Of a stretch of 64,000 bases of DNA, positions 6,256-7,641 are shown piece by piece. The notes under the pieces were generated by a model. The model was given only the letters and a program-made list of their open reading frames with translations. It was not told where the DNA came from and did not search any database. Numbering within the stretch: the stretch's first letter is position 1; every line of letters begins with the position of its first letter. Where the stretch lies: contig CAZAUK010000008.1 in NCBI GenBank assembly GCA_964488475.1, positions 64,554-128,553 on the forward strand, in the 5' to 3' direction. Made by a program: the position numbers and the translations under genes. The DNA comes from an uncultured bacterium. Its GTDB lineage: Bacteria; Krumholzibacteriota; Krumholzibacteriia; Krumholzibacteriales; WJIX01.

Positions 6256-7641
6256 ATGAAAAGGAACCTTTGTACTGCCCTGGCAGCTCTGTTGATAGCG
6301 ATCTTAGCGGGGCTTACCGCCTGCAGGCAGGACCGCGAATGCCTGACAGTTCTCTTTACCAGTGACGAAATGGGCAGGATAAGGGCCTTTGGTTGAGGCG
6401 GGGCCGCTGAAGGCGGAGTGGCCCGGCGGGCCGCGGCGCTCAAAAAAGAGTTTCAGAAGGATTCAGAGGCGCTTCTTGTCTCCGGGGGCGACTTTTACGC
6501 CAATAGAGGGATACTCGCCATGCACAGGGGGCGCTTTCTGGGTGAGATGATGCTGAAGATGGGATATTCAGCGGTTGCTCCGGGAGAGAACGAGCTGAGA
6601 TACCAGCTCCGGCCGATAATGGAGAGCGTGAGGGAAGGCCTGCCGGTGACCTGCGCGAACATATATAAGCAGGGCGAACCGGTATTCAAGACCTATATCA
6701 TCAAGAAGGTCAGGGGGTGGAAGGTGGGAATATTCGCGCTTTTCGGCGCGGAACTGACCACCGCCACGCCTCTGGAGGTAAAACCCCCCGGCCGGGTCTG
6801 CGCCGATATCGTTAGAAAGCTCAAGGATGAAGAATGCCGCATGATCATTCTCATAGCGCACATGGGAAGCGAGAGGCTCAAGCGGCTGGCTCCGTCCCTC
6901 GAGGGGGTGGATCTGGTAATACGTGGTCACGCTGAAGCCGGTTCCACTGTTTCTGACGGCTGCGCCGACAGATCGATAGAGTCTTTTCAGGATATCGGTG
7001 TGCCGGTGCTGTTCGCCGGTGACCGGGGCAAACTTATAGGGAAGGCGGTGATCTGCGGCGGTCCGGGAGGCCGGTTGGCGATTACTGATACTACCGCCAT
7101 AAGACTGGATACCGACTCTGAAAAAGATCCGGAATTCGCCGGATATCTCAAAGAGTTCGCAGAACTGGAAGGATCCAGGCTCAGGGAGACCAGGACGCGG
7201 GGCTTCATATCCCACGACCGGGATGGAAGGATGAGGGAAAATTTCCTGGGGCCGTCGGTTTGCGGAAGATGCCATTCCGACATAGCGTCGAAATTCTCCT
7301 CTTCCCCCCACCAAGGCGCTTTTGAGAGGATAAGGAGAGTAGCGGACAGGGAGGAGTGCCTGAAATGCCATACTTCCGGGTACGGCCAGTATTCAGGTTA
7401 TGGATCGAAGGAGGGGCCGGGAAGCGAAGAACTTGAAGGCGTGCAGTGTGAAGCCTGTCATGGAAGGGGAACGAGGCACTCCCGGGATGGAAAGTACAGG
7501 GAATCGGCCCGCAATTCCTGTGTTATATGTCATACCAAGACCAGAAGCCCGGGTTTTGAATACGAGGCTTACATGGAAAAGGTCCTCTGTTATATGAGCG
7601 CCGATTCGGTTGAATATAAAGGGGACTGCGGACAGGAGTAG
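6256..7641 (+). pseudogene. Lipoprotein: degenerate 5'-nucleotidase-like metallophosphatase domain fused to a C-terminal tetraheme cytochrome c. Interrupted by in-frame TGA at 6394-6396. Track ORFs 6199..6396 and 6418..7641 share one frame.
   Basis: MKRNLCTALAALLIAILAGLTAC is a lipobox signal peptide. LTVLFTSDEMG, AAEGG...LLVSGGDFY and GYSAVAPGENEL align to UshA motifs LTILHTNDHHG / AAEGGSVLLLSGGD / GYDAMAIGNHEF, but the metal-ligand His residues are replaced. Four CXXCH motifs lie in the C-terminal 130 aa (CGRCH, CLKCH, CEACH, CVICH). The TGA sits between phosphatase motifs I and II. If TGA terminates, the downstream GTG start would leave the cytochrome domain without a signal peptide. Confidence 0.5.

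What the first reader, a model, noticed from the sequence alone, without database searches (positions are those of the whole stretch)
6256..7641. Unusual domain fusion: catalytically degenerate 5'-nucleotidase-like domain plus tetraheme cytochrome c
The N-terminal domain aligns to UshA/5'-nucleotidase calcineurin-like phosphoesterases, but the conserved metal-ligand histidines are replaced (D-x-H-H-G becomes D-E-M-G; G-N-H-E becomes G-E-N-E). This suggests a non-catalytic pseudo-phosphatase scaffold. It is fused to a C-terminal module with CGRCH, CLKCH, CEACH and CVICH. SoxB-type proteins show that this fold is used in periplasmic redox pathways. A lipid-anchored inactive nucleotidase fold carrying four haems could be an extracellular/periplasmic electron-transfer or substrate-binding cytochrome. 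I do not recognise this as a described family.
Basis: partly seen in the sequence, partly recalled or inferred. Interest (0 to 1): 0.6.

Follow-up and report, generated by a model that had tools for sequence, protein, structure and literature searches.

The report
Selenocysteine lipoprotein: nucleotidase fold plus four haems
The gene is real. It is read through an in-frame UGA as selenocysteine, and it is a divergent member of an already catalogued but functionally untested family, the 'UshA-like (seleno)proteins'. It is therefore an unexplored periplasmic redox enzyme, not a new family or a dead phosphatase.

Summary

The TGA encodes selenocysteine (Sec47):
- The same codon is TGA in about 50 homologous loci from many phyla and TGC/TGT (Cys) in 21 others.
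- A conserved hairpin with frozen synonymous sites follows it.
- TGA is otherwise the commonest stop codon in the window.
- The window also carries selD, which has its own in-frame UGA.

The N-domain has the 5'-nucleotidase fold (Foldseek E about 1e-14; family profile E 9e-35). The usual nucleotide-binding C-domain is replaced by a cytochrome c554-type tetrahaem module.

The best NCBIfam match is NF041198 'UshA-like (seleno)protein', at 174 bits against a cutoff of 275. Hundreds of related 50%-identity clusters exist, so the fusion is neither rare nor unnamed.

This clade (Krumholzibacteriota-like) differs from the core family:
- It lacks the Cys of the family's P-C-G-U motif.
- It has an invariant Cys236 in a clade-specific insertion.
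- It keeps five of the ancestral metal ligands.

Across the superfamily only the Cys/Sec loop and the haem ligands are conserved. This points to a Sec-centred redox enzyme rather than an inert scaffold. The substrate is unknown.

The parts
6256..7641 (+). Complete gene for a 461-residue selenoprotein precursor (ATG 6256, Sec codon 6394-6396, stop TAG 7639-7641)
   Evidence: Translation. Homologous loci keep the upstream signal peptide, the TGA and the downstream frame.
6256..6324 (+). Signal peptide with lipobox L-T-A-C; Cys23 is the predicted lipidated N-terminus
   Evidence: Read directly from the sequence. Clade homologues have ISGC, LAGC, AAGC or LIGC at the same place. Lipobox rule from general knowledge.
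6340..7125 (+). 5'-nucleotidase-type (calcineurin-like) N-domain, residues ~29-290. Remodelled metal site: D37, M39 (for His), D79, E111/N112 (for Asn-His), H202, H225
   Evidence: AF2 model pLDDT 86.5. Foldseek hits to 3ive/1ush/CD73 at E ~1e-14. Family profile vs PDB 5'-nucleotidases E 9e-35. Residue-by-residue alignment. Motif table.
6394..6396 (+). In-frame UGA = selenocysteine 47, in the motif A-F-G-U-G-G
   Evidence: TGA at the aligned codon in 10 clade loci and 38 other loci; TGC/TGT in 21 loci. Full-length protein homologues have Cys here. TGA is otherwise the commonest stop in the window.
6415..6437 (+). Candidate bacterial SECIS hairpin: G..GUGGCCC-GGC-GGGCCGC..C, with the apical GGC loop at +32 to +34 from the U of UGA
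   Evidence: RNAalifold consensus over 13 loci, with 3 pairs showing compensatory changes. Synonymous third positions of codons 53, 57, 58 and 59 are nearly invariant (0-0.95 bit vs 1.5-2.0 bit at 17 other conserved degenerate codons; one, Thr374, is at 1.0 bit). The same codons are relaxed in Cys-form loci.
6961..6963 (+). Cys236 in a clade-specific insertion (S-D-G-C-A-D) after motif V; candidate partner thiol for Sec47
   Evidence: Cys in 10/10 clade loci that lack Cys at position -2, and in 0/50 other family members. Spatial proximity to Sec47 was not testable.
7129..7200 (+). Long linker helix between the N-domain and the haem domain (residues ~292-315)
   Evidence: DSSP on the AF2 model shows a helix at 238-261 of P0001, which is residues 292-315 of the full protein.
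7228..7593 (+). Cytochrome c554-type tetrahaem module. CGRCH 7261-7275, CLKCH 7357-7371, CEACH 7447-7461, CVICH 7519-7533. Candidate distal ligands: H352 (7309-7311), H408 (7477-7479), C445 (7588-7590; His in most homologues)
   Evidence: Pfam PF13435 at 44.9 bits. PDB c554 1bvb and OcwA 6i5b hits and alignment. Invariant columns. Coordinates.
7643..8449 (+). Conserved downstream ORF (268 aa from ATG 7643; signal-peptide-like N-terminus) that starts 2 nt after the stop codon; probable operon partner of unknown function
   Evidence: Present immediately downstream in all 7 clade loci compared and in public gene calls. No Pfam, NCBIfam or PDB match.
18997..20046 (+). selD (selenide, water dikinase), itself with an in-frame UGA at 19048-19050. 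This is supporting context: the organism makes selenophosphate and decodes UGA as Sec
   Evidence: Split-ORF scan. Translation. TIGR00476 at 369 bits (cutoff 125) and NF002098 at 330 bits (cutoff 299).

Best explanation
6256-7641 is one gene. It encodes a lipid-anchored periplasmic selenoprotein of the 'UshA-like (seleno)protein' superfamily.

Shown:
- Translation reads UGA-47 as selenocysteine, directed by a hairpin about 20-45 nt downstream.
- The N-domain has the 5'-nucleotidase fold but is no longer a phosphoesterase.
- Across the superfamily the metal ligands drift freely. The Cys/Sec on the loop just after motif I is universal.
- The nucleotide-binding C-domain of true 5'-nucleotidases is replaced, after the same kind of long linker helix, by a cytochrome c554-type tetrahaem module.

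Inferred mechanism:
- Sec47 is the catalytic redox centre. It performs two-electron chalcogen chemistry on a small periplasmic substrate (a sulfur, selenium or peroxide species, or a thiol/disulfide).
- It probably cycles through a selenenylsulfide. The partner thiol would be Cys45 in the core family and, in this clade, the relocated Cys236.
- The four haems carry electrons one at a time between this centre and the periplasmic cytochrome pool.

The substrate and the direction of electron flow are unknown.
For: Sec recoding:
- Conserved TGA/Cys column.
- SECIS hairpin with compensatory pairs and frozen synonymous sites.
- TGA is used as the stop in 20 of 44 long ORFs.
- selD with its own UGA lies in the same window.
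- Identical TGA in two independent assemblies.
- By established knowledge of c-type cytochrome maturation, the 407-aa ORF alone has no signal peptide, so its haem domain could not be exported.

Family and fold:
- NF041198 is the best model.
- AF2 and Foldseek results.
- Profile against PDB.

Catalytic role of Sec:
- Only C-G-[U/C], the CXXCH motifs, H352, H408 and H/C445 are conserved superfamily-wide.

Redox wiring:
- The c554 module.
- In Desulfobacterota the gene sits between multihaem NapC/NirT-type and cytochrome c/b561 genes.

Relocated thiol:
- Cys236 is present in 10/10 clade loci and 0/50 others, a perfect anticorrelation with Cys45.
Against: - No experiment exists on any member of the family, and no paper links the family to a substrate.
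- selA, selB and tRNA-Sec were not found in the 64-kb window. The rest of the genome could not be searched.
- No Rfam SECIS model matches.
- Gene neighbourhood in this clade is housekeeping (Mur ligase, ROK, LptD, HU) and says nothing about function.
- This clade retains D37/D79/E111/H202/H225, so a metal-dependent mechanism is not excluded here.
Confidence: 0.72

Rival explanations
1. First reader's model. The N-domain is an inert pseudo-phosphatase scaffold or substrate-binding module. The protein is simply an electron-transfer cytochrome with no catalytic centre of its own.
For: Canonical His/Asn metal ligands are substituted. Metallophos scores below Pfam threshold. Metal ligands are not conserved across the superfamily.
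Against: A costly selenocysteine, or a Cys in homologues, is universally conserved on the active-site loop in about 70 loci from many phyla. By general knowledge, Sec is found almost only at catalytic redox sites. The SECIS is under RNA-level selection.
Confidence: 0.08
2. Metal-dependent enzyme. In this clade the retained D37, D79, E111, H202 and H225 bind one or two metal ions. Sec47 acts as a metal ligand or as a nucleophile beside the metal. This would resemble SoxB (hydrolysis of a sulfur-oxyanion adduct), or Sec-ligated metal centres as in formate dehydrogenase or [NiFeSe] hydrogenase. The haems would handle the electrons.
For: Five of the ancestral ligand positions are kept in the Krumholzibacteria-like and Eisenbacteria-like subgroups. 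SoxB is a detectable relative (TIGR04486 E down to 5e-30 for L008; PDB SoxB E 1.5e-14).
Against: The core NF041198 members (Desulfobacterota) have N/Q/G at these positions yet keep Cys-Gly-Sec, so a metal site cannot be the family-wide mechanism. The motif I His and the catalytic Asn-His are lost here too. The SoxB model scores far below its cutoff (38 vs 550).
Confidence: 0.15
3. The TGA is a true stop. The locus is then either a pseudogene or two genes: a 46-residue lipopeptide plus a separate 407-aa cytochrome starting at GTG 6418, as in public annotation.
For: Gene callers annotate it that way. No tRNA-Sec, selA or selB in the window.
Against: - The TGA sits at the identical codon in about 50 loci, with conserved coding sequence on both sides and Cys in the remaining homologues.
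- The 407-aa product would lack the first beta-strand, motif I and any signal peptide needed for haem attachment.
- The GTG 'start' lies inside the conserved hairpin.
- selD with its own UGA is in the window.
Confidence: 0.03
4. Genome-wide reassignment of UGA (for example to Gly or Trp) rather than site-specific Sec insertion.
For: An in-frame UGA is flanked by Gly codons.
Against: UGA terminates 20 of 44 long ORFs in the window at positions that match homologue ends. Only two in-frame UGAs have coding support, and both align with catalytic Cys positions of known selenoprotein families.
Confidence: 0.01

Closest known systems
NCBIfam NF041198 UshA_like_PCGU, 'UshA-like (seleno)protein' (the 'COG0737 UshA-like, CxU' selenoprotein of Zhang & Gladyshev 2008; PMC2398784, PMC9312934, PMC13188914)
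   Same: Best-scoring model (E 4e-51). Same architecture: signal peptide, 5'-nucleotidase N-domain, Sec/Cys on the loop before GG[LV]ARRA, and a C-terminal four-CXXCH region (model positions 354-519). Sec sits at the same aligned codon.
   Different: Scores 174 bits, below the 275 cutoff. Core members score 281-473. Pro-Cys of the P-C-G-U motif is replaced by Ala-Phe (Pro-Ala or Pro-Val in the other clade loci). A clade-specific insertion carries the invariant Cys236. Five ancestral metal ligands are retained. Lipoprotein signal. The searched open-access literature, in papers holding 'nucleotidase' and 'selenocysteine', never mentions multihaem cytochromes.
E. coli UshA / human CD73 / snake-venom 5'-nucleotidases (calcineurin-like metallophosphoesterases)
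   Same: Same N-domain fold and motif order (I-V). Long helix leading to a second domain. Periplasmic or extracellular location.
   Different: Metal and catalytic residues are changed: DxH to DEM, GNHE to GENE. The 5_nucleotid_C substrate-binding domain is absent and replaced by a haem domain. Sec is present on the loop after motif I.
Cytochrome c554 (Nitrosomonas europaea, PDB 1bvb/1ft5) and the c554-type module of OcwA (PDB 6i5b)
   Same: Four CXXCH in the same order, with matching spacers: CxxCH-x11-H, CHxxG[FY]GxxxGY, GVxCExCHGxG. Only three conserved distal-ligand candidates for four haems, as in c554, whose haem II is five-coordinate (from memory of Iverson et al. 1998).
   Different: Fused to an enzyme-like domain. 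Shorter after haem 4. The third distal-ligand position is Cys445 here and in the Desulfobacterota core group, instead of His.
SoxB thiosulfohydrolase
   Same: A 5'-nucleotidase-fold protein recruited to periplasmic sulfur redox metabolism. Detectable homology.
   Different: SoxB keeps a dimanganese site, has no haem domain and no Sec. The model score is far below its cutoff (38 vs 550).
Other multihaem selenoproteins (ExtKL NF040886; Sec form of the tetrathionate-reductase-family octahaem cytochrome TIGR04315), listed in PMC13188914
   Same: Periplasmic or extracellular c-type multihaem proteins of anaerobes that carry one Sec. They set a precedent for Sec working beside haems.
   Different: No 5'-nucleotidase domain. 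Only weak, haem-motif-level similarity.

Membership tests
NCBIfam NF041198 UshA-like (seleno)protein | HMM score at or above the curated cutoff (275 bits) | tested here: not met
   174.2 bits. Clade relative L003 scores 210. Core members L018 473, L012 304, L008 290 and L011 281 pass.
NCBIfam NF041198 UshA-like (seleno)protein | Architecture: UshA-like N-domain plus C-terminal multihaem region, covered by one model | tested here: met
   Two matched stretches. The C-terminal one covers residues 281-437 against model positions 354-519. N-domain homology is confirmed.
NCBIfam NF041198 UshA-like (seleno)protein | P-C-G-U/C motif (CxU in the literature) | tested here: not met
   Gly-Sec is present, but the motif is A-F-G-U. 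Cys at -2 is absent in all 10 clade loci and present in 59/59 other family loci and paralogues.
Bacterial selenoprotein (Sec decoding) | In-frame UGA aligned with Cys in homologues | tested here: met
Bacterial selenoprotein (Sec decoding) | SECIS stem-loop shortly downstream of the UGA | tested here: met
   Conserved 7-8 bp hairpin with a GGC/GGA loop. Frozen synonymous sites. No Rfam model matches. The distance rule is from memory of bSECISearch.
Bacterial selenoprotein (Sec decoding) | Sec machinery in the genome (selD, selA, selB, tRNA-Sec) | tested here: inconclusive
   selD is present, itself with a UGA. No tRNA and no selA/selB were found in the 64-kb window. The rest of the genome is not available.
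Calcineurin-like metallophosphoesterase / 5'-nucleotidase (UshA, CD73) | Fold of the N-terminal domain | tested here: met
   Foldseek E 7e-15 to 3ive and 1ush. Profile E 9e-35.
Calcineurin-like metallophosphoesterase / 5'-nucleotidase (UshA, CD73) | Complete set of metal and catalytic residues (DxH, GD, GNH[E/D], H, GH) | tested here: not met
   DEM, GD, GENE, H and GH: the motif I His and the motif III Asn-His are replaced. Pfam Metallophos scores 16.1, below 21.5.
Calcineurin-like metallophosphoesterase / 5'-nucleotidase (UshA, CD73) | C-terminal 5_nucleotid_C substrate-binding domain | tested here: not met
   No PF02872 hit. A haem domain occupies that position.
Cytochrome c554 family (PF13435) | Pfam score above gathering threshold and four CXXCH in c554 order | tested here: met
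   44.9 vs 20.8 bits. Alignment to 1bvb.
Cytochrome c554 family (PF13435) | One five-coordinate haem (haem II) among four | not testable with these tools
   Only H352, H408 and H/C445 are conserved as distal candidates. Coordination needs a structure with haems, or spectroscopy.
SoxB thiosulfohydrolase (TIGR04486) | HMM score at or above cutoff (550) | tested here: not met
   38 bits.

The most novel reading that the evidence does not exclude
The family could be a new class of haem-selenium enzyme. In this reading the 5'-nucleotidase hinge architecture presents the Sec (or Cys) loop to the open coordination face of the c554-type five-coordinate haem 2. The alternative centre, in this clade, is a Sec-ligated metal site built from D37/D79/E111/H202/H225. 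Either arrangement would create a catalytic centre with no characterised counterpart, acting on sulfur, selenium or peroxide species in the periplasm of anaerobes. The Krumholzibacteria clade would be a natural 'rewired' version in which the resolving thiol has moved from Cys45 to Cys236.
Probability: 0.15. Interest if true: 0.8.

Novelty: new variant of a known kind. Interest (0 to 1): 0.42.

Why it matters
1. Annotation. In this lineage the gene is mis-called in public data as a 65-aa ORF plus an N-terminally truncated 'multiheme cytochrome' or 'hypothetical protein'. The selenocysteine, the signal peptide and the first catalytic-loop motifs are therefore lost from databases.

2. Biology. 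The UshA-like (seleno)protein family is widespread in anaerobic sediment bacteria: Desulfobacterota, Krumholzibacteriota, Eisenbacteria, Fibrobacterota, Acidobacteriota, Planctomycetota and Myxococcota. It combines a phosphoesterase fold, a Sec and four haems, and it has no known substrate.

3. Testability. The comparison made here gives concrete hypotheses. Sec and the haem ligands are the only invariant features. The partner Cys has moved in one clade. There is a His/Cys switch at a putative haem ligand. Each can be tested by mutagenesis and spectroscopy.

None of this is a new kind of system. It sharpens the description of a known but uncharacterised one.

Tried and rejected
- Rfam, at gathering and at permissive thresholds, found no SECIS or other RNA family. 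The weak lncRNA hits are GC-rich chance matches.
- The single-sequence MFE fold of the region is not better than shuffles (z -1.0). Only comparative analysis showed the hairpin.
I modelled the 407-aa part and a full-length Cys homologue instead. Coordinates are not returned, so Sec-to-haem and Sec-to-Cys236 distances could not be measured.
- The first locus search with the broad alignment failed for lack of conserved stretches.
- Synteny gave no functional lead. In this clade the conserved neighbours are housekeeping genes plus one unknown ORF. Distant homologues share no common neighbour. The exception is Desulfobacterota, where the gene is flanked by multihaem cytochromes and DUF1684 on other strands.
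- A search for selA/selB among ten size-matched window ORFs was negative.
- A literature search for any functional study of the fusion found nothing.
- I considered and rejected global UGA reassignment, sequencing error and pseudogene status.
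Full report
**1. The observation**

- a signal peptide ending in the lipobox L-T-A-C;
- TSDEMG and PGENE;
- CGRCH, CLKCH, CEACH and CVICH.

The frame is interrupted at codon 47 by TGA (6394-6396). The mechanical ORF list therefore shows two pieces in the same frame, 6199-6396 and 6418-7641. Public gene calls for the identical sequence split it into 65-aa and 407-aa products. The same TGA is present in two independently assembled sequencing runs, so it is not an assembly error.

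**2. The TGA encodes selenocysteine**

A search of the protein collection returned about 40 close homologues. They are annotated, where named, as Krumholzibacteriota or 'multiheme c-type cytochrome'. All are about 400 aa, cover only 82-88% of the query, and start right after the TGA position. More distant full-length homologues carry P-C-G-C, C-N-C or C-H-C, with the second Cys aligned to our codon 47.

I fetched DNA for 160 related loci and read the frame upstream of each match. The results:

| Class | Motif at the aligned codon | Loci |
|---|---|---|
| This clade (window, L001-L007, L081, L082) | [A/F/V]-G-TGA | 10 |
| Other Sec forms (many phyla) | C-[G/A/S]-TGA | 38 (39 genes) |
| Cys forms | C-G-TGC/TGT | 21 |

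In every case a signal peptide and the beta-strand plus motif I lie upstream.

Other lines of evidence:
- **Stop-codon usage.** TGA is the commonest ordinary stop in the window (20 of 44 long ORFs). This excludes a reassigned genetic code.
- **A conserved hairpin.** RNAalifold on 13 Sec loci finds a 7-8 bp hairpin with a GGC/GGA apical loop at +32 to +34 from the U of UGA (window 6415-6437). Three of its pairs show compensatory changes.
- **Frozen synonymous sites.** The synonymous third positions of codons 53, 57, 58 and 59 are almost invariant across 18 loci (0-0.95 bit). Seventeen other equally conserved degenerate codons elsewhere in the gene show 1.5-2.0 bit, and one (Thr374) shows 1.0 bit. 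The same codons are relaxed in Cys-form loci.
- **An artefactual start codon.** The annotated GTG start at 6418 lies inside this hairpin.
- **A second selenoprotein gene.** A split-ORF scan found one 12.6 kb downstream: selD. Its own in-frame UGA is at 19048-19050, in the motif ...C-A-G-U-A-S-K..., and it scores 369 bits on TIGR00476 against a cutoff of 125.
- **Not found.** tRNA-Sec, selA and selB are not in the window. The rest of the genome could not be inspected.

**3. What the protein is**

NCBIfam's best model is NF041198 'UshA_like_PCGU, UshA-like (seleno)protein' (E 4e-51). At 174 bits the protein is below the 275-bit cutoff.

Reconstructed relatives give a gradient of scores:

| Locus or protein | Group | NF041198 score (bits) |
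|---|---|---|
| L018 | Desulfobacterota | 473 |
| L012 | | 304 |
| L008 | | 290 |
| L011 | | 281 |
| L009, L032, P0043, P0057 | | 243-269 |
| L003 | this clade | 210 |
| window | this clade | 174 |

Structure and homology of the two domains:
- An AlphaFold2 model of the 407-aa part is confident (pLDDT 86.5). Its best PDB matches are 5'-nucleotidases: 3ive, 1ush and CD73 at E about 1e-14 over about 290 columns.
- A profile of the family hits 5'-nucleotidases at E 9e-35, OcwA (6i5b) at 9e-25, cytochrome c554 (1bvb) at 3e-18 and SoxB at 1.5e-14 (6i5b identified).
- The joined sequence alone aligns from its first beta-strand to venom 5'-nucleotidase. TSDEMG lies over TNDVHA and GENE lies over GNHE.
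- After a long helix (residues about 292-315) the nucleotide-binding C-domain is replaced by a c554-type tetrahaem module. Its first three haem motifs and spacers align one-to-one with c554.

**4. Is it an undescribed family?**

No.
- 'COG0737, UshA-like, CxU' is listed among marine selenoproteins in 2008 (PMC2398784). It also appears in the 2022 and 2026 reviews, the latter citing NF041198 and a second family, NF049981.
- An exhaustive HMMER search found 5936 proteins at E<=1e-3, 1554 at <=1e-10, and more than 150 full-length representatives of 50%-identity clusters.
- No open-access paper holds the terms nucleotidase, multiheme and selenocysteine together. No function has been reported.

**5. 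What differs in this clade**

A motif table over 61 reconstructed genes shows that few features are conserved across the whole superfamily. Those that are:
- C-G-[U/C];
- the four CXXCH motifs;
- H352 and H408;
- a His/Cys position near the C-terminus (Cys445 here).

The ancestral metal ligands drift to N, Q, G, S or W in the core Desulfobacterota group.

The Krumholzibacteria-like clade and its Eisenbacteria-like neighbours retain D37, D79, E111, H202 and H225.

Unique to the 10 clade loci:
- the Cys two residues before Sec is lost (Phe, Ala or Val instead);
- an invariant Cys236 appears in an insertion (S-D-G-C-A-D) after motif V. It is present in 10/10 clade loci and 0/50 others.

I read this as relocation of the thiol that resolves the Sec. 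That is an inference, because distances could not be measured.

**6. Mechanism**

Shown:
- a Sec at a loop that borders the former active site of a 5'-nucleotidase fold;
- a tetrahaem c554 module in place of the substrate-binding domain;
- a lipoprotein export signal;
- conservation focused on Sec/Cys and the haem ligands.

Inferred:
- The protein is a periplasmic redox enzyme.
- Sec47 carries out two-electron chemistry on a small sulfur, selenium or peroxide compound, or on a thiol/disulfide.
- The haems connect it to the cytochrome pool.
- By homology with c554, whose haem II is five-coordinate (from memory of the published structure), haem 2 (CLKCH) may have an open face, since only three conserved distal ligands exist for four haems.
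- Whether the Sec loop reaches that haem is the most interesting open question.

In Desulfobacterota the gene lies between genes for a NapC/NirT-type multihaem cytochrome and a cytochrome c/b561 fusion. This fits a role in a periplasmic electron-transfer network. In this clade the neighbours are Mur ligase, ROK, LptD, HU and an unknown 268-aa secreted protein that starts 2 nt after the stop codon.

**7. Rivals**

It does not explain a universally conserved Sec/Cys.
- **Metal-dependent, SoxB-like or Sec-ligated-metal mechanism.** It remains possible for this clade because five ligands persist. It cannot be the family-wide mechanism.
- **True stop, pseudogene or recoded genome.** These are excluded by the comparative data and by stop-codon usage.

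**8. Verdict**

- It is wrong on the two points that mattered for its interest score: 'undescribed family' and 'non-catalytic'.
- The locus is a mis-annotated, divergent variant of a known, uncharacterised selenoprotein family.

Noticed in passing
window 18997-20046 (+), TGA at 19048-19050: selD (selenophosphate synthetase) is itself a selenoprotein here: ...LTSMASCAG-U-ASKLSP.... The mechanical ORF and probably the public annotation start only at 19075. It scores 369 bits on TIGR00476.
   Followed up: yes
window 7643-8449 (+): A 268-aa ORF with a signal-peptide-like N-terminus starts 2 nt after the selenoprotein's stop codon. It is conserved directly downstream in all clade loci. It has no Pfam, NCBIfam or PDB match. 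It may be a partner protein.
   Followed up: partly
window residue 445 (7588-7590) and the same column in homologues: The conserved C-terminal His, a likely distal haem ligand, is Cys in the window, L001, P0002, P0003 and the whole Desulfobacterota core group. This raises the possibility of His/Cys haem ligation, as seen in sulfur-cycle cytochromes.
   Followed up: partly
L012 7977-8028; L018 4184-4235 and the Desulfobacterota group: These Sec loci lack the GGCCCGGCGGGCC hairpin. They have instead CUUGGCG-GUCU/GGGU-CGCCAAG closer to the UGA, with G and U at +23/+24. That resembles the E. coli fdhF SECIS geometry (from memory). One family therefore has two SECIS solutions.
   Followed up: partly
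L138 1417 and 3045: Two tandem paralogues of the family on one metagenome contig. One has C-G-U and the other C-S-U.
   Followed up: no
L013, L018-L023, L028, L089-L125 (Desulfobacterota loci): The core-family gene is flanked by a 786-aa NapC/NirT-type multihaem cytochrome, a 670-aa multihaem cytochrome fused to a b561-type membrane domain, a DUF1684 protein, an FmdB-type zinc-ribbon protein and an ABC-F ATPase.
   Followed up: partly
L161, L162 (Logan assemblies SRR7048220, SRR7048218): Public gene calls split the selenoprotein gene into 65-aa and 407-aa products. All about 40 close homologues in the protein collection are truncated in the same way, so the Sec form of this clade is invisible in databases.
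   Followed up: yes
window 8629-9345 (+), TGA at 8869-8871: An 80-aa Cys-rich ORF (CPVCG...CC) is followed in the same frame, after a single TGA, by the 146-aa ORF 8905-9345. It could be ordinary adjacent genes or another read-through candidate. No homologue evidence was gathered.
   Followed up: no
window 1-6163 and L001-L010: The gene order Mur ligase - ROK kinase - 1181-aa LptD-like - HU - selenoprotein is conserved across the Krumholzibacteria-like clade. The LptD part extends to Eisenbacteria-like genomes (L008, L010).
   Followed up: partly
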